64,000 nucleotides of DNA from a bacterium (GTDB lineage: Bacteria > Patescibacteriota > Minisyncoccia > Phycocordibacterales > UBA2100). The position numbers and the translations under genes are program-made. This document shows positions 1-49,173 of this stretch, piece after piece. The stretch spans positions 191,751 to 255,750 of the forward strand of contig JAYPJF010000002.1 of NCBI GenBank assembly GCA_038128225.1, in the 5' to 3' direction. Below the pieces are notes generated by a model. That model had not been told where the DNA came from and searched no databases. It was given only the letters and a program-made list of their open reading frames with translations. How positions within the stretch are numbered: the first letter of the stretch is position 1; every line of letters starts with the position of its first letter.

Positions 1-264
1 ACTGAACTTAGGAAGGCGAAAGAGTACACAAAAGGGACGTTGGCTCTTTCGCTTGAGACATCAGACGCCCTTGCTGCGCATATTGCGTTTGATGCTGTCG
101 TTCGAGATCATCTTGAACCACTTGAAGCAACATACGCGCATATAGAACGCGTTACTCCAGCCGACATTCAGCGCGTCGCAAAAGATATTTTCAAGCCTGA
201 GCACGTTCACCTCGCACTTGTGGGGCCGCACGCACCGCAGTCTTTTGAGACTCTCATCTCGTAG
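1..264 (+). CDS. C-terminal fragment of a probable M16-family (insulinase-like) zinc peptidase; the 5' end lies outside the window
   Basis: Open frame runs from base 1 with no stop. The tail ...TPADIQRVAKDIF...LALVGP resembles the conserved C-terminal end of M16 peptidases. Confidence 0.4.
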   Translation, partial: TELRKAKEYTKGTLALSLETSDALAAHIAFDAVVRDHLEPLEATYAHIERVTPADIQRVAKDIFKPEHVHLALVGPHAPQSFETLIS

Positions 265-883
265 AAGTTAATGGACGTGCAACCGCTACTTCATCTTCAA
301 GTGACTGAAGAAGCTGTTCGTACGGTTCCCATGCGCGCATAAGTACTTCCCGCGCAGGATGCCCTTCAAGTTTCTTACGTAAAACACTCACGAGCGCTGC
401 GTACGCTAAGAACCGTGATTTTTGGGCGCCGGTGAAATAGGCGCGAAACTGCTCGTGATCGGCACCGAACTGACTTGTTATGGTCGTGAAGTTGTGTATT
501 TTGTCCCCAGAGGCTATGAGTGTTGTTTCTAAACTTCCCGCTTCAAGTTGCTGCAGATACGCCCGCCATCCATCAGGTGATTTTGGCACCGTAACCGCAC
601 TCACCAGCTTTGCGATTCGCTCGCCGAAATCACGCGCAAGTTCCTCTCGCGTGTATGGTGTGTCTTCAAGTACATCATGGAGAAGGGCCGCAGCGACAAC
701 CTCTTCGTCATCGGAAAAACGCGCAACAAAGCTTGCCGCGATTACGGGATGCACAATATACGGGATGGCACTTGCCCCTTTGCGGACCTGGCCAGCATGA
801 AGCTCGGTTGCTTTTTCAAGCGCCCGTTGTGTCAGTGGTGTCATCGGCATACGGTCAAAAAAGTGTTTTGTTCTTGCTTGCAA
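254..883 (-). CDS. HD-domain protein, RelA/SpoT-type (p)ppGpp hydrolase-like (small alarmone hydrolase)
   Basis: LLHDVLEDT motif typical of the SpoT/RelA HD hydrolase domain. About 209 aa with no synthetase domain. Confidence 0.6.
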   Translation of the reverse strand: MQARTKHFFDRMPMTPLTQRALEKATELHAGQVRKGASAIPYIVHPVIAASFVARFSDDEEVVAAALLHDVLEDTPYTREELARDFGERIAKLVSAVTVPKSPDGWRAYLQQLEAGSLETTLIASGDKIHNFTTITSQFGADHEQFRAYFTGAQKSRFLAYAALVSVLRKKLEGHPAREVLMRAWEPYEQLLQSLEDEVAVARPLTSTR

Positions 884-1688
884 CTGGCGTCACTCGCTCC
901 ATAACTGCCTCAACTGCCCCACGATACCGACAATAGTCACAATCATCAGCCGATTTAGGCAAAGGCCCTTCGAAACACGCACGAATGTCGTGGAGTGTCC
1001 CATCAACCCATGATGCATCCCCCGTGTGCGCGACAAGCGTTACTTCAAACTCGAGCTTTCCATCAAACGCGCGGCGATCCTTACTCGCATTCGCATATAC
1101 AAAATATCCTGTGTTTGAGACAGCAAATCCTGACTGTCGCAGAAGCCATTGATACACTTCCATTTGTCGCTTATAACCATCGTGCCAGTCCTTATCGAGC
1201 GCCTCGATTCTCTCATCCTTACTTGTTGATTTATAGTCAACCACAATGAGCTCCCCTTGGGGGTTTACCCAAATGTCATCAACTGCACCAGAAACACAAA
1301 AGCCAGTCGCGGCATGCTGGTGTTCAATCCCTTTGAAATTTTCTCGCCACACATCCATGCTCGGGTGTTCAAACGGCACTGCATCGACGCCGTACTGCTC
1401 CATGAGCGGGTGGTGTGATTTCGCTCTCCGGTGTATATCAAATTCCTTCTTTAGAAGCGCATCAACCGCGCTGTTGAGATTAAAAGGAAACCCCGGCGGC
1501 CGCGCAACCCCGAGTTTGTTATCGACATAAAAACAGCGCGCGCATTCAATGTACAAATCAATTTTTGAGCGGGACAGGCGAAAACGCTTGCCGCCATAAT
1601 TCCAATCAGGATTTCGATGCGGTTTGTAATATTGACTCACCGCACGAGTATACCATTTATCGAAGCGGCACGTCTCGTTCCTCTGCAT
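855..1688 (-). CDS. PD-(D/E)xK nuclease with C-terminal Cys cluster (Cas4/RecB-like Fe-S nuclease family)
   Basis: IVVDYKS core (D..hDYK) and C-terminal C-x11-C-x2-C plus N-terminal Cys. Start placed at the internal Met MQRNET to limit overlap with the MgtC gene; the longest ORF reaches 1754. Confidence 0.5.
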   Translation of the reverse strand: MQRNETCRFDKWYTRAVSQYYKPHRNPDWNYGGKRFRLSRSKIDLYIECARCFYVDNKLGVARPPGFPFNLNSAVDALLKKEFDIHRRAKSHHPLMEQYGVDAVPFEHPSMDVWRENFKGIEHQHAATGFCVSGAVDDIWVNPQGELIVVDYKSTSKDERIEALDKDWHDGYKRQMEVYQWLLRQSGFAVSNTGYFVYANASKDRRAFDGKLEFEVTLVAHTGDASWVDGTLHDIRACFEGPLPKSADDCDYCRYRGAVEAVMERVTPVASKNKTLF

Positions 1689-2196
1689 CCGGAACACTAT
1701 CGTGATCAAGGTCTGGAGTTTCGGTAATGCGCACTGTCTGATGTTTGTCCGCAAACGCGCGCACTTTCTCTTCTAGAAACCACATAACGGTAAAGACGAG
1801 AAGAGTGAGTATGGTCACCGCAACAGCGAGTGTATACAATCCAAAACCTACCGCCATGCCAACACCGGCGGCAACCCACAACCCTGCGGCAGTGGTGAGG
1901 CCCTGGAGCGCCTGTTCACGAACGAATATTACTCCTGCACCAATAAACCCAATACCTTGAATAATCGCCGCACTGATGCGCATTGGATCAAAATTAACGA
2001 GACCAAGATATAGAGCGGTCACTGACAGTGACATGACAACAAAAAGACACGCACCCATCGCAACAAGCGCATACGTCCGCGAGCCCGCATCTTTGCGCGC
2101 CGATACACGTTCAATACCGATACTCATGCCCAAAAGCGCCGCGAGCACGAGTTTTGCAACCATTACCACTGTTGGATGTGCAAAAAGTACTTCCAT
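1657..2196 (-). CDS. MgtC/SapB family membrane protein
   Basis: Multi-pass hydrophobic N-terminal domain with MgtC-like GIERVSARK.AG.RTYALVA signature. Confidence 0.6.
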   Translation of the reverse strand: MEVLFAHPTVVMVAKLVLAALLGMSIGIERVSARKDAGSRTYALVAMGACLFVVMSLSVTALYLGLVNFDPMRISAAIIQGIGFIGAGVIFVREQALQGLTTAAGLWVAAGVGMAVGFGLYTLAVAVTILTLLVFTVMWFLEEKVRAFADKHQTVRITETPDLDHDSVPDAEERDVPLR

Positions 2197-2198
2197 AG

Positions 2199-2666
2199 TT
2201 ACTGTGTTGTAAACATGGCGATCAACGGGTCGCCTTCTGCTGCGAGAATTGGCAAATCAGTACGCAATTCAAACTCTCGATCACCATCGTCTTCATAAAG
2301 AATCACTGCATACGGTGATGTTGTGGCCGTGTTCCGGAGTAATTCAACTGAGACCAACGAATGTACACCCGCGTCTCTACGCGCAGCGCCAAGCGCGTTT
2401 CCAATATGACTACCGATCATTTCATGTACCACCACCCACCCTGCGCGCGGCAGTCCAACGGCCTCAATAAGAACGGAAGGTCCTGCGGCCTGATCACGTA
2501 CTCGAATGAGTGGCGTTGTGCTTGCATACTGCTGCGCATAGACAGCCGCACCCGATTCATCAGGAGCTGGTGCACTATGCCCTGGTTGCAACCATGTTGC
2601 ATACAGGAGCCATACAATGGTCGCAATAAGTATGATCGCGGTGATCGGCAGGACAAACTTGTTCAC
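2199..2666 (-). CDS. Hypothetical membrane-anchored protein (N-terminal TM helix, soluble C-terminal domain)
   Basis: ORF with hydrophobic anchor VLPITAIILIATIVWLL. GTG start chosen at 2666; the longer in-frame extension would overlap the upstream gene. Confidence 0.3.
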   Translation of the reverse strand: MNKFVLPITAIILIATIVWLLYATWLQPGHSAPAPDESGAAVYAQQYASTTPLIRVRDQAAGPSVLIEAVGLPRAGWVVVHEMIGSHIGNALGAARRDAGVHSLVSVELLRNTATTSPYAVILYEDDGDREFELRTDLPILAAEGDPLIAMFTTQ

Positions 2667-2697
2667 CCCACTATGATGAAGGCTCGAAACGTCACTG

Positions 2698-3558
2698 TCA
2701 AACCGCCTGCTGCAAAACTGGTTGGCGCACGTACGTTGGCTCGCAGAGCGTGCGGGCTTCAGCGAGCACTGCATCAACCGAGCCAGGGCGCACCCCTGCA
2801 GACTCAAGGATTTCAGGTCTTTGTGTAAGCGCACTGCACAATACAATCTTTTGAGCTAAAAGCGCCTGCTTTTCTTTTGATGAAAGACTTACAAGGCACG
2901 TAAGTGGATGAACGCCTGAGCGCTCGATCATATCCTCAATGCCATGTTCGTGTGGGTAATCCCAGCCAATCATCGTAAGTCCTGAGCATCTTCCATACCG
3001 TGTCGCGTTTTTCGTGAGACGCGTGTTGGTGACCAACCATCCTTCGGTGACTCGATCTTTCGGGTTTGGCGCGTTTTTAAGATCTTCAAAACGCGCATAG
3101 ACATACAACGCGTCTTTCAGATCTGTCTTCACTCCTAAGTTGTTATGGAATTTGAGTTCGATGCCCGCGCGGACCCCGTCGCGTTCCGCAAGAATATCGA
3201 CTTCATGCGGAGCGCACTTTCCGTACAACTGCACATCAGTGTGGGTTTGCCACCCTTCAGTGCGCAAAAGCGCAGCAACAAATTGTTCGAAAGGAAACCC
3301 GGATGGGCCAAGATCAAAAACGGCACGTTTGAGTGAATAACGAGCCGCAACATGTGGCGCTTCCCATTTTTTCAAAAGTGCAAAGGCGTGCGCATAAATC
3401 TTTTCGGTTTCGATGCCGTCATACAATTCTTTACGCACGTGCTCAATAACACGATCCTGGATATGTTCAGTAACTCCTGTACGCGTGAGCGAGCTACGCA
3501 ACTTTTCGATCTCGAACAACTCCTGTTCGCCGTCAGCCTTCGTAACGCGCAACTCCAT
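2698..3558 (-). CDS. ATP-cone domain fused to a restriction-endonuclease-like (Mrr_cat / PD-(D/E)xK) domain
   Basis: N-terminus MELRVTKADGEQELFEIEKL is ATP-cone-like. Central EVDILAERDG...IELK fits a D-(D/E)xK nuclease core. Confidence 0.5.
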   Translation of the reverse strand: MELRVTKADGEQELFEIEKLRSSLTRTGVTEHIQDRVIEHVRKELYDGIETEKIYAHAFALLKKWEAPHVAARYSLKRAVFDLGPSGFPFEQFVAALLRTEGWQTHTDVQLYGKCAPHEVDILAERDGVRAGIELKFHNNLGVKTDLKDALYVYARFEDLKNAPNPKDRVTEGWLVTNTRLTKNATRYGRCSGLTMIGWDYPHEHGIEDMIERSGVHPLTCLVSLSSKEKQALLAQKIVLCSALTQRPEILESAGVRPGSVDAVLAEARTLCEPTYVRQPVLQQAV

Positions 3559-3560
3559 GT

Positions 3561-3944
3561 TTAAAGTGCCTGGGCGATACGGATCGGTATCCAGTTGTTG
3601 TTTGCAATTGCCCGAAATTCGAGAGCAGACGATCCAAAAACCTGCACCTGGAATGCGCGCGGCGTGGGCTCATGCTTACAATCTCGATACGGCTGTTCCC
3701 AGGTCTCAAAAACGAGCGCGGTCATACTTCCGTTTATATCTTGTGCGCGCACAAAAAGGTCGTGACATTCTGAAGGCACGGTATACATGCCGCTAATTGA
3801 ATGCACGCCGTTTGCGTAGCGATCATGAACACTAAGCGAGTAGTTTGATGCCTGCGCGTCTGCGGTTAGATACGACGCAAAGAAAAGATGCGCTCCGAGC
3901 GCAAGACACGCACCGAGGCATATAAACCACAACAAGCGTCCCAT
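3561..3944 (-). CDS. Hypothetical secreted protein (signal peptide)
   Basis: N-terminal signal-like MGRLLWFICLGACLALGAHL. No recognisable domain. Confidence 0.35.
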   Translation of the reverse strand: MGRLLWFICLGACLALGAHLFFASYLTADAQASNYSLSVHDRYANGVHSISGMYTVPSECHDLFVRAQDINGSMTALVFETWEQPYRDCKHEPTPRAFQVQVFGSSALEFRAIANNNWIPIRIAQAL

Positions 3945-3982
3945 AGACGCATTGTATCGCGCCCGATGTGCGGTGCACGATC

Positions 3983-5032
3983 TTATTCACACGCTGAAAC
4001 CACGCCGCCGCCAAGACACGCGTCTTGGTGGTACACAACAATCGACTGCCCTTCTGCCACAATCTGGGAATTACTGAATGTAACGCGCGCATGCGCGCCA
4101 CGCACATGCACCTCACACGTCTGCGGAACTTGATGGTAGCGCACTTCCGCAGTGTATGTTCCCTCCGGGACGTGGTGGATCCAGTTACACTGAGAGAGTG
4201 TGAAAACTTTATGTGAGGCACGAAGTGGCTCTGCGGCTACAGTAATCGTGTTGGCTTTGGGTTCAATGCGAACTACATACTGCGGCGTTTGTGCGTGCTC
4301 TTTGTGGGTGATTGTAAAACCGTGACGTTGCCCAACCGTATAGCGTATCGCGCCTGCGTGGACGCCAATTACATGCCCGCTCTCAGATAACACAGAACCC
4401 GGCTTCTGTGGGACGTAGCGTGCCAAAAAGTCCCCTATTGAAACGTCGCCAACAAAACAGAGCCCTTGACTATCAGGGCGCGCCGCCGTCGGCAACCGGC
4501 ACTCACGCGCGAGCGCACGCACTTCATTTTTTGTTTTATCCCCAACAGGAAATAATACGTGCGCAAGATCGTCCTGTGTCAGTGTCCACAAAAAATAACT
4601 TTGGTCTTTTGTTCTGTCTTTTCCACGAATAAGTGCGTATGCGCCATTTTCGGAATGTGTTTGCGCATAGTGCCCTGTCGCAACATAGTCGGCGCCTTCT
4701 TTGTGCGCCCAAGCACGAAAAAAGCCAAACTTGATGTGTCGATTACACAACACATCGGGATTTGGCGTGCGCCCTGCTTGGTACTCTGCAATCATCGAAT
4801 TAATGACGGCATCCTTGTACTCAGATGAAAAATCAACTTCTCGGAATGGGATCTGCAGCGCCGCGGCGACTCGTTTCGCATCAAGGCGATCCTGCTCCCA
4901 GGTGCACTCCAAAAATTCTGGCTGCCAGATTTTAATGAAAGCCCCAGTTACGACATGCCCCGCCTTTTTCAGTAGCGCAGCGGAGACTGAACTGTCCACG
5001 CCGCCTGAAAGACCAACGAATACGTGTGCCAT
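3983..5032 (-). CDS. mnmA: tRNA-specific 2-thiouridylase MnmA
   Basis: PP-loop SGGVDSS at the N-terminus. Full-length collinear MnmA-like sequence with conserved Cys pair. Confidence 0.9.
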   Translation of the reverse strand: MAHVFVGLSGGVDSSVSAALLKKAGHVVTGAFIKIWQPEFLECTWEQDRLDAKRVAAALQIPFREVDFSSEYKDAVINSMIAEYQAGRTPNPDVLCNRHIKFGFFRAWAHKEGADYVATGHYAQTHSENGAYALIRGKDRTKDQSYFLWTLTQDDLAHVLFPVGDKTKNEVRALARECRLPTAARPDSQGLCFVGDVSIGDFLARYVPQKPGSVLSESGHVIGVHAGAIRYTVGQRHGFTITHKEHAQTPQYVVRIEPKANTITVAAEPLRASHKVFTLSQCNWIHHVPEGTYTAEVRYHQVPQTCEVHVRGAHARVTFSNSQIVAEGQSIVVYHQDACLGGGVVSACE

Positions 5033-5094
5033 ACCTCAAATAAACACGTCTTCCGCACAAAACACAAGCATACGTAGCTCGCGAGCCTGGATTT

Positions 5095-6126
5095 CTATGT
5101 CCCTAAATACTGTCTTTTCTTCCGCAAATGTTCTTCGTACGTCTTACTGTAGTGTGTCACGTGAGAATAATCCGCGAGATAAAACAAAAAGTCATGTTTG
5201 ATCGGTGTTGCTGCGGCACGAAGCGCACTTAAGCTCGGGCTTGCAATCGCGCCTGGCGGTAATCCTTTGTATCGGTATGTATTGTATGGCGAATCAATTT
5301 GCAAATCCCGCAGCGTGAGTGTAAACGTACTTTTGCCATTAATGTACAAAAAAGCCGCGTCAACCTGAAGGGGCATGTTGATCGCAACGCGATTCCACAA
5401 CACGCCCGCAATCATGCGCCGATCGTAAAAAGTATGTGCTTCTTTTTCAAGTAGCGATGCCATGACTACTATGTCGTTGAGCGTGCGCCCCGACGCTTGT
5501 ATTTCCTTATCGAGTTCGACAATACGCGCGTCGAAATTGTTGCGCAATGCCTTAAGCACGCTTTCCGCAGTTGCATTTGGCAAGAAAAAGTACGTATCAG
5601 GAAATAAGTACCCCTCGTACGGCTGCGCCAGCGCAACGAATTCGCTTGGGTTAAATCGTGGAAATCGCTCATCAAAAAGCTCGGCAATGCCCTGCGCGGT
5701 TGTTCCCTCGCTAACCCGTACACGCACCGGCTCAAGTCCGTATGCACCCATGATCAATGCGCGCGTCACTGCAAAGACCGTAACTCGATTGGGAAACTGA
5801 TAGTCGCCTGCGTGAACCCGTCGTTCTCCACCGAGAACACGAACGATGACCTGCAACGCCAGCGCTGATCGAACAACATGCCGTGTTTCGAGTTCCTGCG
5901 AAATTTCTTTGAGCGACATGTCCGTTGGCACCGTAACGATTTCTTTAACAGGGAAATCTGCAGGTGCTTGGATATAGAGTACATATGCAACGCTTGCCGG
6001 AATAAGCAGACCCACGATTGTAATTAACGTCCGCTTACTTGCGTGCTTGTTCCATGCTTTAAAAAAGCGATGACGAAACCCTTCAAAGCGCCACCAGGCA
6101 CGTGCTGCATCTTTTTGCAAATCCAT
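5095..6126 (-). CDS. mltG: Endolytic murein transglycosylase MltG (YceG family)
   Basis: YceG-like motifs (LLEKE, PYNTY..GLPPGAI.SP) and N-terminal TM helix. Start at MDLQ abuts the upstream gene. Confidence 0.8.
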   Translation of the reverse strand: MDLQKDAARAWWRFEGFRHRFFKAWNKHASKRTLITIVGLLIPASVAYVLYIQAPADFPVKEIVTVPTDMSLKEISQELETRHVVRSALALQVIVRVLGGERRVHAGDYQFPNRVTVFAVTRALIMGAYGLEPVRVRVSEGTTAQGIAELFDERFPRFNPSEFVALAQPYEGYLFPDTYFFLPNATAESVLKALRNNFDARIVELDKEIQASGRTLNDIVVMASLLEKEAHTFYDRRMIAGVLWNRVAINMPLQVDAAFLYINGKSTFTLTLRDLQIDSPYNTYRYKGLPPGAIASPSLSALRAAATPIKHDFLFYLADYSHVTHYSKTYEEHLRKKRQYLGT

Positions 6127-6130
6127 AATA

Positions 6131-7462
6131 CTACACGGGTAAATTAGGCGGTGCCTCTGATTTTGTTGCAGGAATCCGCTCAAGCCCCGGTGCTCGTATC
6201 GCACGACTCGGGAAATGGAAAATCGTTGCTAATTCCTCGGTCGTCATAACAAAATGCTGTTTCTTGTGAGGTGGATGGAACCATGAACGCCGGCGATACG
6301 CATCAAAAAGTTTTTTGCGTGCCTTATCTTCTGCGCCTCCAAGTTTCTGCCAGGGAAAATTAAAAACTGTCATGCCGCCAGTCGGCACTAATGAATTGAG
6401 ATGCGCTGAACTAAACTGCTTAAAAATGCCAGTCATGCCCACAAAACTCGGCGCACGAAACGCATCTTTTTCCGCAATATAGATCGCACGTATACCAGTA
6501 TCAAACGCCTGCTTGTCGAGACTCCGCCCAATTGCTTTGATTCGTTCGATGTCAGAGGGGGTTGGATTAGGAAATCCTCTCGCTTTCTTGCCCTCTCCGA
6601 CATCATACTCAATCACGCTCGCGTCGCGAATTTTTTGTATCTCTTGTTTCGCTTCAGTCTTCCACCGATCTTCTTTCTCAAACCACGAGACCTTCTTTGT
6701 TTTCGGGTCAACTTTTGGAATCAAATCTTTATTGGTACGAATAAGCACCTGAATCCAAATGCGCTCACCGGGCTTGAGGGTGCTTAGATGCTCGAACAAA
6801 TGCGCGAGTGGATCCACTTTAAATTCTTCCTTAGGATCTTTATCAAGCTCATAGTCGATGTATGTTTTGATTGGGTAGACATCTTTTTGTCCAAGCTTAA
6901 AATCACACCCCCACAAATTGTACTGAGTCGTATTGTATGGAAACTGTTTTGCGTAATCGGGAACGACGAATATTTCTACCTCAGGATACTGCGCATAAAT
7001 TTGCGCCTCGACGATGTCTTTAAGAAATTTGCGTGTCCACACATAAAAATGAATACGCCCTCCTTCTGAAACTATTTCAAACGAATACCAGGGGCGAACT
7101 TTCCCATAAATAAAAAGGTCGATAAACGTGCCTTCGCCCATACCAATGTGAAGCCCAGCAAAGGCAAGCTCCATTGCCCGCGGTGACTTTTCAATGTCGC
7201 GCGGCACTTTGACCTCAAGCAAAATCATTTCCTGTGATGCGATAAAACGTGCCCGCAAAGACCACAAACGGAGATGCCATAAAATAATCGCCAGCAATAG
7301 AGGGAGCCAAGCGGGCGCAGAAACAAACAAAAAACTCAAAATGCCAAGCGCAAGCTCTGGAAATGTAAGTGCGAGACCCAAAAGTCCTCCCAAAAAAAGT
7401 ATGGCGATACTATGTAAACCCTTGATACCAAAACCTTCAAGTGTTTTTATCAGTGACTCCAC
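6131..7462 (-). CDS. Hypothetical multi-pass membrane protein with a large soluble domain
   Basis: 443-aa ORF with an N-terminal cluster of TM helices. No confidently recognised domain. Confidence 0.4.
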   Translation of the reverse strand: MESLIKTLEGFGIKGLHSIAILFLGGLLGLALTFPELALGILSFLFVSAPAWLPLLLAIILWHLRLWSLRARFIASQEMILLEVKVPRDIEKSPRAMELAFAGLHIGMGEGTFIDLFIYGKVRPWYSFEIVSEGGRIHFYVWTRKFLKDIVEAQIYAQYPEVEIFVVPDYAKQFPYNTTQYNLWGCDFKLGQKDVYPIKTYIDYELDKDPKEEFKVDPLAHLFEHLSTLKPGERIWIQVLIRTNKDLIPKVDPKTKKVSWFEKEDRWKTEAKQEIQKIRDASVIEYDVGEGKKARGFPNPTPSDIERIKAIGRSLDKQAFDTGIRAIYIAEKDAFRAPSFVGMTGIFKQFSSAHLNSLVPTGGMTVFNFPWQKLGGAEDKARKKLFDAYRRRSWFHPPHKKQHFVMTTEELATIFHFPSRAIRAPGLERIPATKSEAPPNLPV

Positions 7463-7522
7463 GCATCTATGATAGCAGAGTTTGTGCGCACAAACGCGTA
7501 GCGCACGTGTATCTGTGAGAAA

Positions 7523-8548
7523 TTACACGAGTTCGTACAAACCGTCGTCATTGCGACGAAACGGACCGTTTTGAAGATTCACCAAAATCGTCGCGTCTTT
7601 AACGTAGCGCTCTCGCTTTACGCGCTCAATCAACTCTTCACGAGAAAGCGCGCGTCCCTCGCGTGCGAGTACCCCGCGAATGACATCGCGAACAACACCC
7701 GGTTGATACCCCCACTCAAGGAGTGCATACAAGCCACGTCCCACAAGTACAAAACGTGGGTCTTTAATGAGCTCGTTGTGACATGTTGCTGGATGTGCTT
7801 TGCGACCAAAGAGTTTTTGAATCGCTGCAGCAACTTCCGTAAAATGCATTGGAGAGCCATGTCGCTTGAGCGCAAGGTACGCGAGATCACGCATACTTTT
7901 CACGCGTACATACGGAGACGATGCCCTGCCCCACTCGCCCAACGGATTGCGTCCAAGGCGTTTGGTGATTTCGAGCCAGCGTTGCAATACTTCAGGAGAT
8001 TGTTTTTTGACAATACCTGCTTTCGTGAGGCACGCGCCAAACTGTTGCATAAAATCTTCTTCGGGAATCAGGTGGTCAGGATCAACCGCCTCGTGCAAAT
8101 CGCGTAATGCCCCCTCGACTCGCGTCGCAAGGTCTTCGTTGACATGCCAGCGGCGCACAAAGTGATCATCTTCGCGCGCGTCCACAAACGGGTGGCCCAC
8201 AGTAAGCAAAAAGATCACATGATTGCGATCTTGGGGGTTTTTTGCGACTTCTTGAACGAGGCGACGCTCTGAGATTACGCCCCCGAGTACTTCTATTTGT
8301 TTTTCGAGCTCCGTAATTTCACGCTCATGCGCCTTATATGCAGCCGAATCACGAATGGCGGAAAGGCCATGATTCTCTATTTGGCGAACACGTTCGCGTG
8401 TAATGCCCAAATCCGAGCCGATTGATTCCAATGTCCGTACGACATTGTCTTTATCGAGTCCAAACCGCGCGACCAAGACCCCCCGCGAACGCTCGGGCAA
8501 ACCTGCCAGCAATTCTTTTGTAACTGAACGAGGTGAAAATGTAAGCAT
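7523..8548 (-). CDS. Sigma-70 region 4 (HTH) domain protein with an uncharacterised C-terminal domain
   Basis: LESIGSDLGITRERVRQIENHGLSAIR is a region 4.2 helix-turn-helix. No region 2 is present. Confidence 0.5.
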   Translation of the reverse strand: MLTFSPRSVTKELLAGLPERSRGVLVARFGLDKDNVVRTLESIGSDLGITRERVRQIENHGLSAIRDSAAYKAHEREITELEKQIEVLGGVISERRLVQEVAKNPQDRNHVIFLLTVGHPFVDAREDDHFVRRWHVNEDLATRVEGALRDLHEAVDPDHLIPEEDFMQQFGACLTKAGIVKKQSPEVLQRWLEITKRLGRNPLGEWGRASSPYVRVKSMRDLAYLALKRHGSPMHFTEVAAAIQKLFGRKAHPATCHNELIKDPRFVLVGRGLYALLEWGYQPGVVRDVIRGVLAREGRALSREELIERVKRERYVKDATILVNLQNGPFRRNDDGLYELV

Positions 8549-8701
8549 ACTTGATAGGTATCGTAATACCGTGGGATAATTTGTAAAGCTTTATCACACA
8601 AAAGTCAAGTGCTACGGGTATGCACGCATTATGCACATTATGTGCATCTATGCACGTTTTAGGTCGACTGGCCAAAATATGACCCGTGATAGAATCAGCA
8701 A

Positions 8702-10111
8702 ATGGCAAAAGCAGCACGTACTCCTCCCCAGGATCTTGAGACAGAAAAGATTCTGCTTGGAGCACTCATGTTGCACCCAAATGCGATGTATGAAGTAGTT
8801 GACCTCATATCGCCTGACGCATTTTATGCCCCAAAACATCGAACAATTTATGAAGCGATGCTTGCGCTCTCCGAAAAAGGCGAACCAATTGACTTTGCAC
8901 TCGTCGCGGCAAAAATTGCAGAACGGAAACAACTTGACCAAATCGGAGGCCGTGCATACCTTTCCGAACTTATCGCCCAAGCGCCGTCTGCGGTGCATGC
9001 CGGTAATTATGCCGGTGTCATCCAATCGAAAGGTGTCTTGCGCAACCTCATTGAAGTAGCCGATGAAATTAGCGGACTTGGGTTCTCAGAGGAGCGTCCG
9101 ATTGACGAAGTATTGGATGAAGCTCAGTCAAAAATCTTCAAAATATCAAACCGCGTCGGCCTCAAATCATTCACGTCGCTCTCACAAGAACTCCACGAAA
9201 CATGGGAACGAATCGAGCGTTTAAGCCACACAAAAGACGGCCTTCGGGGGGTACCAACGGGCTTTACTGCGCTCGACAATAAACTTGCAGGGCTGCAAAA
9301 TTCCGACCTCATTATTCTTGCTGCACGCCCTTCGATGGGTAAAACATCGCTTGCGCTTGATATTGTACGGCGCGCCGCACTCGAACATAAAATACCTGTT
9401 GGCTTTTTCGCGCTTGAAATGAGCGCGCAGCAACTTACTGAACGTATGCTCGCCGCCACTGCACATGTTGATGCGTGGCGCCTGCGAACCGGCAAAGGGC
9501 TTTCGGCGACTGACTATGAAAATCTGCAACATGCGATTGGTATGCTCGACGAGGCGCCGATTTATATCGATGATAACTCGACAAACACTGTACTTGCGAT
9601 GCGCTCAGTTGCCCGTAGATTGAAAGCCGAAAAGGGATTGGGACTTATTGTTGTTGACTACCTCCAGCTTATTTCGTCGGCATCGTCACGCCCAAACGAC
9701 AACATCGTGCAGCAAGTCACGGAAATTTCACGCGGTCTTAAAGCAATGGCACGCGATCTTGATGTTCCAGTACTCGCCCTTTCACAGCTTTCCCGTGCCG
9801 TTGAACAGCGCGGAGGTCGCCCTCGTTTGTCAGACCTCCGTGAATCGGGAGCCATCGAGCAGGACGCAGATGTTGTTATGTTCATTCACCGTGAAGACAA
9901 AGACAAACGGTATCATGAAGCCGAGTTTGAAAATGGCCACGACTCGTTTAAGAGCGATACTGTTGATGTTGATATCATTATCGCAAAACACCGTAATGGT
10001 CCTGTTGGCACCGTGCGGCTTAAGTTTCGCGATAACCAAGCGCGTTTCGAGTCAGTTTCTGAAGATTTTAGCGACGCTTCGGCTGAAGCTGCGGTTGATA
10101 TTGCAGACTAA
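8702..10111 (+). CDS. dnaB: Replicative DNA helicase DnaB
   Basis: DnaB N-terminal domain plus RecA-like core with Walker A (ARPSMGKTS). 469 aa. Confidence 0.92.
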   Translation: MAKAARTPPQDLETEKILLGALMLHPNAMYEVVDLISPDAFYAPKHRTIYEAMLALSEKGEPIDFALVAAKIAERKQLDQIGGRAYLSELIAQAPSAVHAGNYAGVIQSKGVLRNLIEVADEISGLGFSEERPIDEVLDEAQSKIFKISNRVGLKSFTSLSQELHETWERIERLSHTKDGLRGVPTGFTALDNKLAGLQNSDLIILAARPSMGKTSLALDIVRRAALEHKIPVGFFALEMSAQQLTERMLAATAHVDAWRLRTGKGLSATDYENLQHAIGMLDEAPIYIDDNSTNTVLAMRSVARRLKAEKGLGLIVVDYLQLISSASSRPNDNIVQQVTEISRGLKAMARDLDVPVLALSQLSRAVEQRGGRPRLSDLRESGAIEQDADVVMFIHREDKDKRYHEAEFENGHDSFKSDTVDVDIIIAKHRNGPVGTVRLKFRDNQARFESVSEDFSDASAEAAVDIAD

Positions 10112-45040: not shown

Positions 45041-45113
45041 TCCGCGGTAGCTCAGTCGGTAGAGCGGCTCGCTGTTAACGAGTTGGTCGTAGGTTCGAAT
45101 CCTACCCGCGGAG
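45041..45113 (+). tRNA. tRNA-Asn (anticodon GTT); CCA is encoded at 45114-45116
   Basis: TCCGCGG/CCGCGGA acceptor, anticodon loop CTGTTAA and T-loop GGTTCGAATCC. Confidence 0.85.
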
Positions 45114-46814
45114 CCAGTTAGGAATAGAGGCGGCGAAAGCTGCCTCTTTCCTTTTGGTGTAGCCCTTCTTTTCAGGTTCGAGCGTAGCAAGTAGCTGTTT
45201 CTGGTCCCGAAGCTCGTTTTCAATGAGCAAATACGGGTGCAGCCTTTCAATGCTTAGTTTTTTGTCCTTAAGGGTTAGGTTCGAGCCGATGGTTGAAAAT
45301 ATCTCCCGTTTCTTCTGTAACGGAGCGTCTTCGTTGAAATGTCTTTTCGCAAAGGCACAGAAATTGAACGTACGTTCAGCAACGGCGAGGTCATGGTCAA
45401 ACTTCTCTCTAGTACCACCCATTTCTTTTTCAATGCGCGTTCGCTCCGTGACTAAAGCTTTTTTCTCTTGAGCAAATTCATCGGGGGTATACAGCTCGTG
45501 GTGAGAATTCTGTGGTGAGGTAAATATCTTGCTCAAATTAGCAAGCCTTGTTTGGCAGTCATCATATGCCGCCTGAAGAGACACGCGCACCGTCTTCTCT
45601 TCTTTAGTAGAGGTCTTCTGCTTTTCCTGAAGGTAATCGAGGGCTAAGGTTAGGTAATCCTCATCAATGGTAATTTTCTCAAGCTCCTTGTTGAATTGTG
45701 ATTCTAGGTCTTCTACACGCACATGCTTTTGCGTGCAGTCCCGATTCTTTTTCTTGGTGCAGTGATAGTAAACATATTTCAAAATGACAGGATTCTGCAT
45801 TTCGGAAACGTCAGTCAAACATTTCGGGCAATCAGTCCTGTTTTGACTTGAAAACTTGAATTTGCAGTTTGAGCAAATAATCTGATTTTTCTCTTCAGCC
45901 GTGATGGTCGAATCACATTCACCGCAGCGCATTAGACCTGTGAAAGCGAACTCGTGGAGCTGCATTCGAGGCTTACCTTTCTTGCCTAAAAGAAGCTGCG
46001 CACGCTGATACTCCTTTTCAGTAATCATTGGAGGATGATTACCTTTTATCATTTTCTCTTCGCCAGTTTCAGGGTCTGTCCAAGGAAAATAGCCGTAATA
46101 AAAAGGGTCTTTTAGGATGTTGTACATGTGGCTCATCGTAGGAGGATTGCCACCAATCTTCCTGTGCTTGAGGGTTCTCAAGCCCCACTCGTTTATTGCA
46201 ATGTCACGAATCTTGGAAACAGGATAGCTTCCCGTAAGAAAGAGGTCCCATATTTTTCTCACCAACTCAAAACGTTCTGGGTCCGCAGCAATAGTTTTGC
46301 TGCCTTTTTCAGTGCCAACGTTGATATATCCAATCGGACCACCTGAAGGTCGCCAACCGCGTTGAGCTTTACTGTTCAAACCACGTTTAACAACTCTCGA
46401 AAGTCGCATGACGTAATCTGTCGCACGACCACTCTCTATACTCATCAGAAGCCCCGCGTCCTGCGGATAATACGAGCGTGTAGGAGTTTTTATAACTTTA
46501 ATAACCTCATTCTGCAGCATCCACTGGAGCCTGCCGCTATCAATGGGATTTCGAGAAAGACGGTCTACGTCCCAGCAAATTAGCGCGTTTGCCTCTTCGC
46601 GCTCGATACGCTCAAGCATTTGATTAAAGACACTTCGACCAGGGGCTTTCGCACTGCGCTCTTCAGTAAAAGGTTTTGCGACCAACACCAAACTCTCTCG
46701 CTCGCACTGCTTTTTGAGCGCTCCGATTTGGTCGTCTATGGATGCAATCTGGCGTTGAGAATCCTCGGAACTTTTACGACAGTATGCAAAGAATTTAAGA
46801 GTTTCCGTTTTCAT
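45102..46814 (-). CDS. Large serine recombinase (resolvase/invertase N-terminal domain, recombinase domain, zinc ribbon)
   Basis: YCRKSSEDSQRQ catalytic Ser motif. About 570 aa with a C-terminal Cys-rich zinc ribbon and coiled coil. Confidence 0.85.
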   Translation of the reverse strand: MKTETLKFFAYCRKSSEDSQRQIASIDDQIGALKKQCERESLVLVAKPFTEERSAKAPGRSVFNQMLERIEREEANALICWDVDRLSRNPIDSGRLQWMLQNEVIKVIKTPTRSYYPQDAGLLMSIESGRATDYVMRLSRVVKRGLNSKAQRGWRPSGGPIGYINVGTEKGSKTIAADPERFELVRKIWDLFLTGSYPVSKIRDIAINEWGLRTLKHRKIGGNPPTMSHMYNILKDPFYYGYFPWTDPETGEEKMIKGNHPPMITEKEYQRAQLLLGKKGKPRMQLHEFAFTGLMRCGECDSTITAEEKNQIICSNCKFKFSSQNRTDCPKCLTDVSEMQNPVILKYVYYHCTKKKNRDCTQKHVRVEDLESQFNKELEKITIDEDYLTLALDYLQEKQKTSTKEEKTVRVSLQAAYDDCQTRLANLSKIFTSPQNSHHELYTPDEFAQEKKALVTERTRIEKEMGGTREKFDHDLAVAERTFNFCAFAKRHFNEDAPLQKKREIFSTIGSNLTLKDKKLSIERLHPYLLIENELRDQKQLLATLEPEKKGYTKRKEAAFAASIPNWLRG

Positions 46815-46815
46815 A

Positions 46816-47067
46816 TCACCTCAAAAGAGAACGAATTTTTCCTGTAAGCTGCTGTAACTTAGTCTCAAGCTGAACAACATATTCCAAAAAAGAATCGTCC
46901 CGAAAGTACACACCGAAACATTTGGAGCATGCGTATTTTTCAGTACCCCAAATCCTCTTAAGTTTACAGGAAAGACAAGGTTTTTTCATGGCAATTTTGC
47001 TTGCTTTGTAATATGTGCTGCCAAGCTGCCAACCTGATTCCTTAAGGAAAGAAAAACAACTTGGCAA
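46816..47067 (-). CDS. Small zinc-finger protein (CxxC...CxxC)
   Basis: 83-aa ORF with two CxxC pairs, directly upstream of the recombinase. Confidence 0.35.
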   Translation of the reverse strand: MPSCFSFLKESGWQLGSTYYKASKIAMKKPCLSCKLKRIWGTEKYACSKCFGVYFRDDSFLEYVVQLETKLQQLTGKIRSLLR

Positions 47068-47082
47068 TTTGGCAATGGATTA

Positions 47083-48225
47083 TTAAATATCATCAAAAAT
47101 CGAATTTTCTTCTGTGGGAGATACTATCCCTGCAAGGGCTTCCTCCTCTTTAGGCAAGAAGTAGGAATTCTGCTTACCAACCTTTACGGAATTAATTTTG
47201 CCTAAAAGAACTAGCTCTCGAAGCGCCTGGCGAACATTCTTTTGACCCGCATCTTTTTTAGTGATTTCAAGTAGCTCGTTAGTTGTTCGCATCTCGCCTG
47301 AAGAGAGAACATCCAATATCAGGGATTTGGCGGTCTCTTTCTTGTTTGCATCTTCTTCAATTTCACCTAGGTAGTCGAACTTAAAGACAGTACGACCGTC
47401 CTCCACGCCATCGGTAATCTTCACCGCAAAAGGCTTTATTTCGCTCCCTAGGCGATTTTTACGCTGATAGAAGTGTGTCTCCCCAGACACTTCATCTTTC
47501 CTGAGCATGAGGAGTGTTTCTACACTCGCTACCTTGTCTTGAGAACCAAAAAGCTGCTCTTTTTTTGGTATTTTTCCTTCAAACTGCTGATTCTTGCGTA
47601 GGTGTTCTGTGAATATGACCGACACGCCAGAATTTTTCAGAATCTGGAACTTCTGGAAGAAATGCCGTACTTCTTCTGCCTTTTCTTCGCGCATCCCGCC
47701 TGTGGCAGGACGGAAGGTATCAATGATGAGAACATCAATTTTGTTCTTAAGGATATAGTTCAGAAGCCAACGGTATTTCTTATCTTCTTCGCCCGTACCG
47801 TTCAAATTAAAATCATCCTCATTGAGGATAAAAAGGTTTTCATTTGAAGGGTCAAATTTCATCATTCGACCTCGCCTCTGCATTTCGCTCACTGCCATTT
47901 CCAGATTTACATACAGAACTCTGCATTTTTCAGTTTTGAATCGTGTATCCCCAAACCAGGGTGTACCTGTTGTAAGGCACTCCGACAGATGCATTATGGC
48001 TATAGACTTTCCTTCACCAGAAACAGAAGCCACGATTGATACGCCTTCTTTTGGGAAAAGGTCTTTAACTAGCCATCGGTCATCTGGGAAAGAAAGCTTA
48101 TCTATGTCCGCCCAAAGCACAGGTTCAGGCTGTTTGCGTTCCTCGCGCACAAAATCCCATTCGCGCGGTGCGCCACCTAGACTTTCGATATGCTCTTCAA
48201 GCTTTTGCCATTTTTCTTCCTGCAT
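47083..48225 (-). CDS. RecA-like P-loop ATPase of the RepA/AAA_25 type with C-terminal winged-helix
   Basis: Walker A SGEGKS and Walker B DVLIIDT. Domain order typical of plasmid/ICE RepA-like helicase loaders. Confidence 0.55.
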   Translation of the reverse strand: MQEEKWQKLEEHIESLGGAPREWDFVREERKQPEPVLWADIDKLSFPDDRWLVKDLFPKEGVSIVASVSGEGKSIAIMHLSECLTTGTPWFGDTRFKTEKCRVLYVNLEMAVSEMQRRGRMMKFDPSNENLFILNEDDFNLNGTGEEDKKYRWLLNYILKNKIDVLIIDTFRPATGGMREEKAEEVRHFFQKFQILKNSGVSVIFTEHLRKNQQFEGKIPKKEQLFGSQDKVASVETLLMLRKDEVSGETHFYQRKNRLGSEIKPFAVKITDGVEDGRTVFKFDYLGEIEEDANKKETAKSLILDVLSSGEMRTTNELLEITKKDAGQKNVRQALRELVLLGKINSVKVGKQNSYFLPKEEEALAGIVSPTEENSIFDDI

Positions 48226-49119: not shown

Positions 49120-49173
49120 TGGATTTTTACTGTATGCCCCAAAAGTCTTCATTTTTGCTAAAATTAATACCTA

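What the first reader, a model, noticed from the sequence alone, without database searches (positions are those of the whole stretch)
2698..3558. ATP-cone domain fused to an Mrr-like restriction-endonuclease fold
ATP-cones are allosteric (d)ATP sensors, best known from NrdR and ribonucleotide reductase. Here one is fused to a D-(D/E)xK nuclease core. This could be a nucleotide-pool-gated nuclease, a potential defence or abortive-infection effector that senses dNTP changes, and as far as I know it has not been characterised biochemically.
Basis: partly seen in the sequence, partly recalled or inferred. Interest (0 to 1): 0.55.

Follow-up and report, generated by a model that had tools for sequence, protein, structure and literature searches.

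The report
ATP-cone fused to Mrr-like nuclease
This is a real gene for a nucleotide-sensor domain fused to an intact DNA-cutting enzyme. It belongs to a very large, conserved but untested family that sits among housekeeping and energy-stress genes, not among anti-phage defence genes.

Summary
The closest solved relative is the uncharacterised structural-genomics protein AF1548 (1Y88), which lacks the ATP-cone.

Over 399 homologs the catalytic E91, D121, E134 and K136 are 100% conserved. The ATP-cone residues that contact nucleotide in E. coli NrdR are 94-100% conserved at eight positions and less so at three.

No biochemical study was found.

The defence or abortive-infection reading is not supported:
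- There is no PADLOC match, no phage hit, and only 2 hits in 72,556 plasmids.
- In Patescibacteria the gene is as conserved as MnmA and lies in a fixed housekeeping gene string.
- In Bacteroidota, Chlamydiota and Acidobacteriota it heads a cassette of beta-CASP nuclease, AMP-phosphorylase-like enzyme and PRPP-synthetase-like enzyme, inside energy-stress islands.
- The window's genuine defence island, a HpaII restriction-modification pair, lies 42 kb away.

Best guess: an adenine-nucleotide-gated housekeeping nuclease for nucleic-acid turnover or salvage.

The parts
2698..3558 (-). Whole gene, 286 aa: ATP-cone + Mrr_cat PD-(D/E)xK nuclease + AF1548-like C-terminal domain
   Evidence: ORF. The same gene is called on 6 independent contigs. 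Domains. Model pLDDT 91.2.
3325..3549 (-). ATP-cone domain (residues 4-78): beta-hairpin lid plus helical bundle, the putative adenine-nucleotide sensor
3286..3312 (-). Linker motif L83-G-P-S-G-F-P-F-E91, the most conserved stretch of the family. It joins the ATP-cone directly to the first catalytic glutamate.
   Evidence: G84 100%, P85 99%, G87 99%, F90 100%, E91 100%. The tool chose this motif as the family-specific search pattern.
2983..3300 (-). Mrr_cat / PD-(D/E)xK nuclease core (residues 87-192)
3151..3198 (-). Catalytic block H118-E119-x-D121 ... E134-x-K136
   Evidence: D121, E134 and K136 are 100% conserved, H118 and E119 99%. They correspond to the predicted catalytic D38, E51 and K53 of AF1548 (PMC1821046; PMC1874628).
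2743..2961 (-). C-terminal helical domain (residues ~200-272), AF1548-like_C, probably a helix-hairpin-helix-type DNA-binding module
   Evidence: Aligned to 1Y88 through residue 270. PF22357 scores 26.3 bits, above the 23.9 threshold, in homolog P0014. Helices at 207-214, 227-235, 242-246, 249-253 and 258-272. The helix-hairpin-helix assignment is my inference from the sequence pattern and is not tested.
3561..3944 (-). Context: upstream 127-aa predicted membrane or secreted protein, no Pfam family. Its stop codon lies 2 nt before the target's ATG.
   Evidence: Homologs sit at position -1 in 8 related loci (cluster 15).
3983..5032 (-). Context: MnmA (tRNA 2-thiouridylase), a conserved upstream neighbour
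   Evidence: Pfam. It lies at -1 to -3 on the same strand in 49 of 76 loci analysed, and in none of the 22 Bacteroidota loci.
855..1688 (-). Context: Cas4-like PDDEXK_1 nuclease with a Cys cluster, a conserved downstream neighbour
   Evidence: Pfam PF12705. Weak match to TIGR00372 cas4. It lies at +1 to +5 (32 of 33 at +1 to +3) on the same strand in 33 related loci.
1657..2196 (-). Context: MgtC family membrane protein, a frequent downstream neighbour
   Evidence: Pfam. Cluster 6 occupies +1 or +2 in 29 loci. An MgtC gene also lies in the Psychroserpens island.

Best explanation
The gene encodes a chromosomal, vertically inherited, adenine-nucleotide-gated nuclease. It is not a defence effector.

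Three parts make up the enzyme:
- The C-terminal helical domain holds nucleic acid.
- The Mrr-like PD-(D/E)xK core (E91, D121, E134, K136) cuts it.
- The N-terminal ATP-cone is joined to the first catalytic glutamate by the near-invariant LGP(S/T)GxPFE linker. It binds ATP/dATP (possibly ADP/AMP) and switches the enzyme on or off.

The switch most probably works through a nucleotide-dependent change of oligomeric state, as ATP-cones do in NrdR and in ribonucleotide reductases.

The physiological role I think most likely is controlled nucleic-acid turnover or nucleotide salvage, tied to the cell's energy and nucleotide status. Outside Patescibacteria the gene heads a cassette that could take nucleic acid to nucleotides (nuclease plus beta-CASP RNase) and then to ribose phosphates (AMP-phosphorylase-like enzyme plus PRPP-synthetase-like enzyme). 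In Patescibacteria it is embedded in a core housekeeping string, often followed by a Cas4-like nuclease and less often by DNA-repair genes.

Shown here: the architecture, the folds, conservation of the catalytic and nucleotide-contact residues, the distribution, and the gene neighbourhoods.
Inferred: nucleotide binding, which ligand binds, the direction of regulation, the substrate (DNA or RNA), and the physiological role.
For: Architecture and folds.

Active site: E91, D121, E134 and K136 are 100% conserved in 399 members.

ATP-cone: K7, F/Y15, K19, T/S51 and Y74 are 97-100% conserved (five further aligned positions are 63-97%, see the full report). They align with the E. coli NrdR inner-site contacts V51, K53, E59, F61, K65, L66, S105, I108 and the gatekeeper Y131 (bioRxiv 10.1101/2025.03.28.645925; alignment). 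E. coli NrdR itself has Ser, not Arg, after the Lys, so the family's K-A/S motif does not disqualify it. NrdR's inner site accepts ATP, ADP and AMP.

Housekeeping behaviour:
- A conserved string in Patescibacteria: sigma-r4/HARE-HTH, DUF8128, YceG, MnmA, target, (DUF7282/MgtC), PDDEXK_1, with an MGMT-type DNA-binding protein or UDG in some loci.
- Mean pairwise identity 49.2% against 48.2% for MnmA in the same 49 genomes, with correlated divergence (Spearman 0.37-0.63 against four neighbours).
- The gene's GC content, 0.505, equals the genome background.

Nucleotide and energy context elsewhere:
- A beta-CASP/RMMBL nuclease lies immediately downstream, often overlapping, in 13 of 33 loci outside the Patescibacteria-type string.
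- An archaeal-type phosphorylase (TIGR03327 AMP phosphorylase, 506 bits) and a Prs (PRK07199) follow in Bacteroidota, Chlamydiota and Acidobacteriota.
- The surrounding genes include USP, type II GAPDH, 2-hydroxyacid dehydrogenase, PFK, phosphoketolase, acetate kinase, GlgP, PPK2, PEP synthase and P-type ATPases.
- In Bradyrhizobium diazoefficiens an MBL/Prs/thymidine-phosphorylase-family trio (bll3115-3117) belongs to the core microoxic proteome (PMC6515984).
Against: - No experiment exists for any member. Nucleotide binding, cleavage and substrate are all unverified.
- The window's own neighbourhood contains none of the beta-CASP, phosphorylase, Prs, USP, GAPDH2 or PPK2 genes (no tblastn hit in the 64 kb). 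The salvage role is therefore extrapolated from other phyla.
- In the small, compact genomes of Patescibacteria, conserved synteny can reflect ancestry rather than function.
- I did not show that the Bradyrhizobium trio is orthologous to the cassette here, or that an ATP-cone nuclease lies beside it. bll3114 and bll3118 were absent from the paper.
- The canonical Arg of the ATP-cone 'KR' motif is missing (A8, 78% Ala in the family).
- One Planctomycetota homolog lies next to an SNF2/NOV_C helicase, a context more like repair or defence.
Confidence: 0.45

Rival explanations
1. Anti-phage defence or abortive-infection effector. The ATP-cone senses the collapse or surge of dNTP/ATP pools caused by phage infection and unleashes an Mrr-type nuclease on phage or host DNA.
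For: The catalytic domain belongs to the Mrr_cat family, whose best-known member is a type IV restriction enzyme (PMC3424549). Its structural neighbours include many ligand-gated defence nucleases: Can2, Card1, Cdn1, NucC and Cap4. The logic of a sensor domain fused to a PD-(D/E)xK nuclease is typical of defence effectors. One Planctomycetota homolog lies beside an SNF2/NOV_C helicase.
Against: - There is no significant PADLOC match (best E=0.047).
- No defence family recurs among 125 Bacteroidota neighbours; each hit occurs in at most 2 members.
- There are 0 hits in 50,697 phage genomes and 2 in 72,556 plasmids.
- Synteny with housekeeping genes is fixed, and conservation matches that of MnmA. 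This is unlike the patchy, fast-evolving, island-borne pattern of defence genes.
- The GC content is native, whereas the window's real restriction-modification island has GC 0.434, a tRNA-Asn and a serine recombinase.
- There is no modified-DNA reader domain such as Mrr_N.
Confidence: 0.1
2. DNA-repair or recombination endonuclease: structure-specific, like NucS/EndoMS, Hjc or XPF. Its activity is coupled by the ATP-cone to the dATP/ATP level, that is, to the capacity for replication and repair synthesis.
Against: Outside Patescibacteria, neighbours with an annotated repair function are not seen. The recurrent partner there is a beta-CASP nuclease whose best-scoring named model after Cas14 is the ribonuclease aCPSF1, together with nucleotide- and energy-metabolism genes. 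There is no PCNA or beta-clamp motif and no mismatch-binding domain like those of NucS. This rival overlaps the best explanation, since both propose a housekeeping nucleotide-gated nuclease. It differs only in the physiological role.
Confidence: 0.25
3. Non-catalytic regulator. An NrdR-like, nucleotide-sensing DNA-binding protein uses a nuclease fold only to bind DNA, for example as a transcriptional repressor.
For: NrdR shows that an ATP-cone can drive nucleotide-dependent DNA binding. PD-(D/E)xK folds have sometimes been recruited as inactive DNA binders (general knowledge).
Against: All four catalytic residues are 100% conserved over 399 diverse members, as are R156, D159 and N178. Such conservation is not expected for an inactivated fold. 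No RNR or other candidate regulon gene is linked to it in the roughly 90 loci inspected.
Confidence: 0.05

Closest known systems
AF1548 of Archaeoglobus fulgidus (PDB 1Y88, structural genomics, function unknown)
   Different: The AF1548 chain is 199 residues long and starts about 21 residues before the nuclease helix, so it has no ATP-cone. It is archaeal. Only in-silico nuclease predictions exist for it.
NrdR (ATP-cone transcriptional repressor of ribonucleotide reductase genes)
   Different: In NrdR the output is a Zn-ribbon DNA binder placed N-terminal to the cone. Here it is a catalytic PD-(D/E)xK nuclease plus a helical domain placed C-terminal to the cone. No NrdR box or RNR linkage was seen. 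The NCBIfam NrdR model scores only 11.8 bits against a cutoff of 124.65, so the protein is not a member.
ATP-cone 'activity site' of ribonucleotide reductases (NrdA, NrdB, NrdD)
   Different: The enzyme being regulated is a nuclease, not a reductase. The canonical Lys-Arg pair is Lys-Ala/Ser here.
Mrr and other Mrr_cat type IV restriction enzymes
   Same: The catalytic domain family is the same (PF04471, above threshold).
   Different: There is no Mrr_N winged-helix reader of modified DNA and no defence-island context. Inheritance looks vertical. Membership holds at the domain level only.
Ligand-gated PD-(D/E)xK nucleases of CRISPR type III and CBASS (Can2, Card1, Cdn1, NucC, Cap4)
   Different: The sensor here is an ATP-cone, not a CARF or SAVED domain. 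The presumed ligand is a housekeeping adenine nucleotide, not a cyclic oligonucleotide. No cyclase or CRISPR genes lie nearby.

Membership tests
Pfam ATP-cone (PF03477) | Profile match above the curated gathering score | tested here: met
   31.1 bits against a threshold of 25.8, residues 4-78. Precomputed PF03477 hits appear in nearly all homologs.
Pfam ATP-cone (PF03477) | Fold: beta-hairpin lid over a helical bundle | tested here: met
Pfam ATP-cone (PF03477) | Conserved nucleotide-contact residues (Lys of the lid, Glu, Phe, Lys/Leu of helix 1, Ser/Thr and Ile of helix 3, Tyr of helix 4; canonical Lys-Arg pair) | tested here: inconclusive
   Eight contact positions are 94-100% conserved when like residues are pooled: K7, F/Y15, K19, T/S51, Y74, L20 (L/I/V), I54 (I/L/V) and V5 (I/V/L). 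E13 is 63% and R26 is 76% (84% with K). They align with NrdR contacts. The canonical Arg is Ala (A8, 78%), but E. coli NrdR has Ser there.
Pfam ATP-cone (PF03477) | Binds ATP/dATP and transmits an allosteric signal | not testable with these tools
   Needs binding assays (ITC, MST) and oligomerisation assays.
PD-(D/E)xK nucleases, Mrr_cat (PF04471) | Profile match above the gathering score | tested here: met
   26.8 bits against a threshold of 21, residues 87-192.
PD-(D/E)xK nucleases, Mrr_cat (PF04471) | Catalytic E ... D ... (D/E)-x-K residues present and conserved | tested here: met
   E91, D121, E134 and K136 are 100% conserved in 399 sequences. They equal D38, E51 and K53 of 1Y88.
PD-(D/E)xK nucleases, Mrr_cat (PF04471) | Restriction-endonuclease-like alpha/beta core fold | tested here: met
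PD-(D/E)xK nucleases, Mrr_cat (PF04471) | Metal-dependent phosphodiester cleavage | not testable with these tools
   No biochemical data were found for any member.
Type IV restriction enzyme Mrr (whole-protein family) | N-terminal modified-DNA reader domain (Mrr_N winged helix) | tested here: not met
   The N-terminus is an ATP-cone, and no other Pfam domain was found.
Type IV restriction enzyme Mrr (whole-protein family) | Defence-island or mobile-element context with patchy distribution | tested here: not met
AF1548-like proteins (1Y88: nuclease + AF1548-like_C) | Significant sequence and fold match across both AF1548 domains | tested here: met
Known anti-phage defence systems (PADLOC-DB v2) | Match to a defence-protein model, or a recurrent defence partner gene | tested here: not met
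   The best match is PDC-S02 at E=0.047. Among 125 neighbours no family recurs in more than 2 members.
NrdR | Zn-ribbon plus ATP-cone, matching the equivalog model TIGR00244 | tested here: not met
   11.8 bits against a cutoff of 124.65. There is no Zn-ribbon.

The most novel reading that the evidence does not exclude
The ATP-cone nuclease is the gatekeeper of a previously undescribed catabolic route for nucleic acids that is controlled by energy charge. When adenylate levels fall, in hypoxia, starvation or dormancy, the cone releases the nuclease. Together with the adjacent beta-CASP RNase, an AMP-phosphorylase-like enzyme and a Prs-like enzyme, it converts cellular or scavenged nucleic acid into ribose phosphates that feed fermentative ATP production. 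In Patescibacteria, which are generally reported to lack de novo nucleotide synthesis (my background knowledge, not checked here), the stand-alone gene would be a core regulator of nucleotide salvage.
Probability: 0.25. Interest if true: 0.7.

Novelty: new variant of a known kind. Interest (0 to 1): 0.5.

Why it matters
ATP-cones are known experimentally only as switches of ribonucleotide reductases and of their repressor NrdR. A nuclease under ATP-cone control would extend this sensor to nucleic-acid degradation. It would also be a housekeeping counterpart of the cyclic-oligonucleotide-gated nucleases used in immunity.

The family is very large (thousands of clusters and about 600 or more species genomes) and strongly conserved. 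It is present in cultured, tractable Bacteroidota (Pontibacter actiniarum, Chitinophaga pinensis, Cyclobacterium lianum, Psychroserpens ponticola), and a solved homolog exists (1Y88), so the question is directly testable.

Its recurrent cassette is a beta-CASP nuclease, an AMP-phosphorylase-like enzyme and a Prs-like enzyme. This points to an unstudied link between energy or oxygen stress and nucleic-acid catabolism. It could also explain how minimal Patescibacteria control nucleotide salvage.

For annotation, the result warns against filing Mrr_cat fusions as 'restriction endonuclease' or defence genes by default.

Tried and rejected
1. Defence island. I scanned the protein and 125 Bacteroidota neighbours against PADLOC. 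Nothing recurred, so I rejected this as the main reading.
2. Mobile-element carriage. tblastn against phages gave no hit. Against plasmids it gave 2 hits, both inside metabolic islands.
3. A Cas4/AddB-like Fe-S 'iron staple'. Four cysteines (C115, C191, C241, C272) are 78-97% conserved. Their spacing does not match the C...CxxC...C pattern, and I had no coordinates to measure distances. This is left unexplained (note 4).
4. A degenerate ATP-cone. I suspected one because Ala replaces the canonical Arg. I dropped the idea after finding that E. coli NrdR has Ser at that position, contacting the gamma-phosphate, and that most other aligned contact positions are conserved.
5. Cassette genes in the window. 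I looked for beta-CASP, phosphorylase, Prs, PPK2, USP and GAPDH2 genes in the 64-kb window and found none.
6. Promoter and terminator scan of 1-9000. Counts were near the shuffle expectation and not informative.
7. Literature. Searches for ATP-cone with restriction endonuclease, nuclease, Mrr, or defense plus phage, and for the phrase 'ATP cone domain-containing protein', found no study of this family.
8. Bradyrhizobium. I tried to find whether an ATP-cone gene lies next to bll3115-3117. Neither the paper nor its supplements mention the flanking genes.
Full report
OBSERVATION. The ORF listing shows an ATG-initiated ORF of 286 aa at exactly 2698..3558 on the minus strand. Its start codon lies two nucleotides after the TAA stop of the upstream gene (sequence ...TAA AC ATG GAG...). 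The identical protein is called on six independent metagenomic contigs.

Pfam finds an ATP-cone (PF03477, residues 4-78, 31.1 bits against a gathering score of 25.8). It also finds an Mrr_cat restriction-endonuclease domain (PF04471, residues 87-192, 26.8 bits against 21). Against the PDB, residues 92-270 match one entry strongly. This is 1Y88, the structural-genomics protein AF1548 of Archaeoglobus fulgidus (E=6.7e-33).

What it missed is a third domain at residues ~200-272, which Pfam calls AF1548-like_C (PF22357). It is above threshold in the close homolog P0014, and the 1Y88 alignment covers it in the window protein.

IS THE NUCLEASE INTACT? Two papers predicted the catalytic residues of AF1548 as D38, E51 and K53 (PMC1821046; PMC1874628). 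These correspond to D121, E134 and K136 of the window protein in the motif H-E-V-D...I-E-L-K.

I aligned 399 family members. They came from two homology searches and one representative search, spanned about 35-100% identity to the window protein, and included several phyla. In that alignment E91, D121, E134 and K136 are each 100% conserved. So are G84, F90, G113, R156, D159, N178 and P218.

IS THE ATP-CONE LIKELY TO BIND NUCLEOTIDE? The family motif is K-[A/S]-[D/S/N]-G, not the canonical K-R-D-G, which at first suggested degeneration. However, the structural paper on E. coli NrdR lists the inner-site contacts as Val51, Lys53, Ser54, Glu59, Pro60, Phe61, Lys65, Leu66, Ser105 and Ile108, with the gatekeeper Tyr131 and Arg72 (bioRxiv 10.1101/2025.03.28.645925). 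NrdR itself therefore has Ser after the Lys.

In a MAFFT alignment these residues fall on V5, K7, A8, E13, L14, F15, K19, L20, T51, I54, Y74 and R26 of the window protein.

Family-wide conservation is:
- K7 99%
- G10 98%
- F/Y15 100%
- K19 97%
- L/I20 92%
- T/S51 99%
- I/L54 93%
- Y74 97%
- E13 63%
- R26 76% (84% with K)

The domain is thus under strong selection at most of the aligned ligand-contact positions (E13 and R26 less so). Binding of an adenine nucleotide is a well-founded inference, but it has not been shown.

The most conserved stretch of the whole protein is the linker L83-G-P-[S/T]-G-x-P-F-E91. It runs from the end of the cone straight into the first catalytic glutamate. This fits tight allosteric coupling between the two domains, although that is an inference.

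HOW BIG AND HOW OLD IS THE FAMILY? The counts are:
- 2,128 clusters at 90% identity match at E<=1e-3 when searching from the window protein. The top hits are all Patescibacteria (Kaiserbacteria, Paceibacterota) with the same architecture.
- At least 6,551 clusters match at E<=1e-20 when searching from a Chlamydiota member.
- 433 clusters at 50% identity match at E<=1e-30.

Carriers include Patescibacteria, cultured Bacteroidota (Chitinophaga pinensis, Pontibacter, Cyclobacterium lianum, Psychroserpens ponticola), Chlamydiota, Acidobacteriota and Planctomycetota.

Databases already label these proteins 'ATP cone domain-containing protein' or 'restriction endonuclease'. The fusion is thus catalogued but not studied: five literature searches found no characterisation.

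DEFENCE OR HOUSEKEEPING? Several independent tests argue against the defence or abortive-infection reading.

(i) There is no significant PADLOC match.

(ii) The family has no hit in 50,697 phage records and only 2 in 72,556 plasmids.

(iii) In the window the gene lies in a tight co-directional array with gaps of 2-62 nt or small overlaps. The array runs sigma-r4/HARE-HTH, DUF8128, YceG, MnmA, a 127-aa protein, the target, DUF7282, MgtC, a Cas4-like PDDEXK_1 nuclease, then an HD_4 hydrolase.

(iv) I called ORFs around 76 loci and clustered the neighbours. This order is conserved across the 54 loci that are not Bacteroidota, nearly all of them Patescibacteria. All of the following lie on the target's strand:
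- MnmA directly upstream, 49 loci
- DUF8128, 43 loci
- YceG, 37 loci
- the sigma-like protein, 33 loci
- PDDEXK_1 downstream, 33 loci
- MgtC, 29 loci
- DUF7282, 15 loci
- an MGMT-type DNA-binding protein, 15 loci
- a family-4 UDG, 10 loci

(v) Across the same 49 genomes the target's mean pairwise identity is 49.2%, against 48.2% for MnmA. Its divergence correlates with that of its neighbours (Spearman 0.37-0.63). This is the behaviour of a vertically inherited core gene.

(vi) The window does contain a genuine mobile defence island, but at 45.1-53.8 kb. It holds a tRNA-Asn, a large serine recombinase, an AAA_25 protein, a C5-cytosine methyltransferase and an HpaII restriction endonuclease. Its GC content is 0.434 against 0.50 for the rest of the window. 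The target's GC content is 0.505.

WHAT THE OTHER PHYLA ADD. Outside Patescibacteria the context differs but again does not point to defence.

A beta-CASP/RMMBL metallo-beta-lactamase nuclease lies immediately downstream on the same strand in 9 of 22 Bacteroidota loci and in one mis-binned locus (L067). The same arrangement occurs on the Pontibacter actiniarum plasmid and the Criblamydia sequanensis plasmid, where the genes overlap or abut. It occurs again in a Chlamydiia MAG with a 10-nt overlap and on a 370-kb contig.

In Owenweeksia, Cyclobacterium, L067, Pontibacter and Criblamydia this pair is followed by a 'thymidine phosphorylase family' protein of about 500 aa and a ribose-phosphate diphosphokinase. 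In an Acidobacteriota genome the phosphorylase and Prs follow the target even without the beta-CASP gene.

NCBIfam places these proteins as follows:
- The phosphorylase falls in the archaeal-type group. It scores 601.6 bits to TIGR02645 and 506 bits to the AMP-phosphorylase equivalog, just below that model's cutoff of 535.
- The Prs falls in subfamily PRK07199.
- The beta-CASP protein scores highest to the Cas14 beta-CASP model (405 bits, cutoff 800) and next to the ribonuclease aCPSF1 (299 bits, cutoff 580). Both are below cutoff.

The surrounding genes are universal stress proteins, type II GAPDH, D-2-hydroxyacid dehydrogenase, PFK, DeoC-family aldolase, phosphoketolase, acetate kinase, glucan phosphorylase, PPK2, PEP synthase, MgtC and P-type ATPases. 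A locus of unknown phylum has transketolase and transaldolase directly upstream.

In Bradyrhizobium diazoefficiens an adjacent trio annotated MBL-fold hydrolase, Prs and thymidine-phosphorylase-family protein (bll3115-3117) belongs to the core microoxic proteome and transcriptome (PMC6515984). I did not establish orthology to the cassette here, nor the presence of an ATP-cone gene beside it.

Among 125 Bacteroidota neighbours no PADLOC family recurs in more than two proteins. The one exception is a Planctomycetota locus where the gene sits near an SNF2/NOV_C helicase.

MOST LIKELY MECHANISM. These findings point to a housekeeping nuclease whose activity is set by adenine-nucleotide occupancy of its ATP-cone. 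The switch most probably works through nucleotide-dependent oligomerisation, which is how ATP-cones act in NrdR and in RNRs (and established knowledge).

The NrdR inner site accepts ATP, ADP and AMP. A read-out of energy charge is therefore as plausible as the ATP/dATP ratio.

The cassette suggests a pathway. Nuclease plus beta-CASP RNase would give nucleotides. An AMP-phosphorylase-like enzyme and a Prs-like enzyme would then give ribose phosphates, which feed glycolytic and phosphoketolase fermentation in a low-oxygen or energy-stress island.

In Patescibacteria the gene stands without that cassette, often with a Cas4-like nuclease downstream and, in a minority of loci, DNA-repair genes. A repair or recombination role therefore remains a serious alternative for the window's own gene.

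Which ligand binds, whether it activates or inhibits, and whether the substrate is DNA or RNA all remain unknown.

My confidence is about 0.45 for the turnover or salvage version and 0.25 for the repair version. It is about 0.1 for defence and 0.05 for a non-catalytic regulator.

COMPARISON WITH WHAT IS KNOWN.
- At the domain level the protein is a member of ATP-cone, Mrr_cat and AF1548-like_C.
- It is not an Mrr-type type IV enzyme, because it has no Mrr_N reader domain and no defence context.
- It is not NrdR (11.8 bits against a cutoff of 124.65, and no Zn-ribbon).
- It is not a CARF/SAVED-gated nuclease, although it may work by the same logic.
- Its nearest solved relative, AF1548, lacks the cone. 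This supports the view that the cone is a regulatory add-on to an autonomous unit made of a nuclease and a DNA-binding domain.

VERDICT. The feature is real and the domain assignment is right. The 'nucleotide-gated nuclease' idea remains the best mechanistic reading, but the defence framing is not supported. The gene is a typical member of a very large, already annotated but experimentally untouched family, so I rate it a new variant of a known kind (an ATP-cone-regulated enzyme or ligand-gated nuclease).

Interest is moderate (0.5). The fusion itself will not surprise specialists who browse domain architectures. The family's size, its strict conservation, the tractable hosts, the solved homolog and the newly noted nucleotide- and energy-stress cassette make it a good, testable target.

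Noticed in passing
window 45041-53833: A low-GC island (0.434 against 0.50 for the rest of the window) lies next to tRNA-Asn (45041-45116). It holds a large serine recombinase (45102-46814, minus strand), an AAA_25 protein (47083-48225, minus strand), an 804-aa ORF with no Pfam match (49174-51588), a C5-cytosine DNA methyltransferase (51763-52767) and an HpaII restriction endonuclease (52703-53833). It looks like an integrated mobile element carrying a type II restriction-modification system, in a Patescibacteria-like genome.
   Followed up: partly
window 855-1688 (minus strand), and +1 to +5 in 33 related loci (L005-L084): A Cas4-like PDDEXK_1 nuclease with N- and C-terminal Cys motifs is a conserved downstream neighbour of the target in Patescibacteria. 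It is more conserved than MnmA (59.6% mean pairwise identity). No CRISPR context was seen, and its role is unknown.
   Followed up: partly
window 6131-7462 (minus strand) and 7523-8548 (minus strand): A 443-aa protein has no hit in my Pfam scan, though precomputed hits label it DUF8128. An unusual 341-aa protein combines sigma-70 region 4 with a HARE-HTH domain. The two form a conserved pair upstream of YceG-MnmA in 33-43 Patescibacteria loci.
   Followed up: no
target residues C115, C191, C241, C272 (window ~3214-3216, 2986-2988, 2836-2838, 2743-2745): Four cysteines spread over the nuclease and C-terminal domains are 97%, 97%, 88% and 78% conserved in 399 homologs. AF1548 keeps at least three of them. 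They could form a metal or redox site, but I could not check this without coordinates.
   Followed up: partly
L085 (Pontibacter actiniarum plasmid NZ_CP021236) 1972-6597; L086 (Criblamydia sequanensis plasmid NZ_LK031773) 8001-12608; also L045, L064, L067, L088: A four-gene cassette is conserved across Bacteroidota and Chlamydiota, and partly in Acidobacteriota: ATP-cone nuclease, beta-CASP/RMMBL nuclease, archaeal-type (AMP-phosphorylase-like) phosphorylase, and Prs (PRK07199). It lies inside islands with USP, phosphoketolase, acetate kinase, GlgP, GAPDH and P-type ATPase genes. A similarly annotated MBL/Prs/TP trio (bll3115-3117) is induced by microoxia in Bradyrhizobium diazoefficiens (PMC6515984).
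   Followed up: partly
window 1657-2196 (minus strand); L091 3304-4572: MgtC-family genes recur next to the target in Patescibacteria (29 loci). One also appears, fused to DUF4010, in the Psychroserpens stress island. From my own recollection, not checked here, Salmonella MgtC has been reported to lower ATP levels by acting on the F1Fo ATP synthase, so the pairing with an ATP-sensor nuclease may not be accidental.
   Followed up: no
window 254-883 (minus strand): A stand-alone HD_4 (RelA/SpoT-type hydrolase domain) protein of about 200 aa, possibly a small alarmone hydrolase, closes the gene string. Homologs occur downstream of the target in 5 loci (cluster 21).
   Followed up: no
proteins P0266, P0286, P0287 (Planctomycetota cluster); L089 9394-12978: Some Planctomycetota members are 462-522 aa long, with an N-terminal extension of about 240 residues of unknown nature. 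The 280-aa Planctomycetota member lies 550 nt upstream of a 1,194-aa SNF2/ResIII helicase with a NOV_C domain. This is the only context seen that looks like repair or defence.
   Followed up: no
window 2199-2666 (minus strand) and 3561-3944 (minus strand): The target is flanked by two small predicted membrane or secreted proteins: DUF7282 downstream and a 127-aa protein with no family upstream. Both recur in related Patescibacteria loci (15 and 8 loci). It is unclear why a cytoplasmic nuclease would share an operon with envelope proteins.
   Followed up: no
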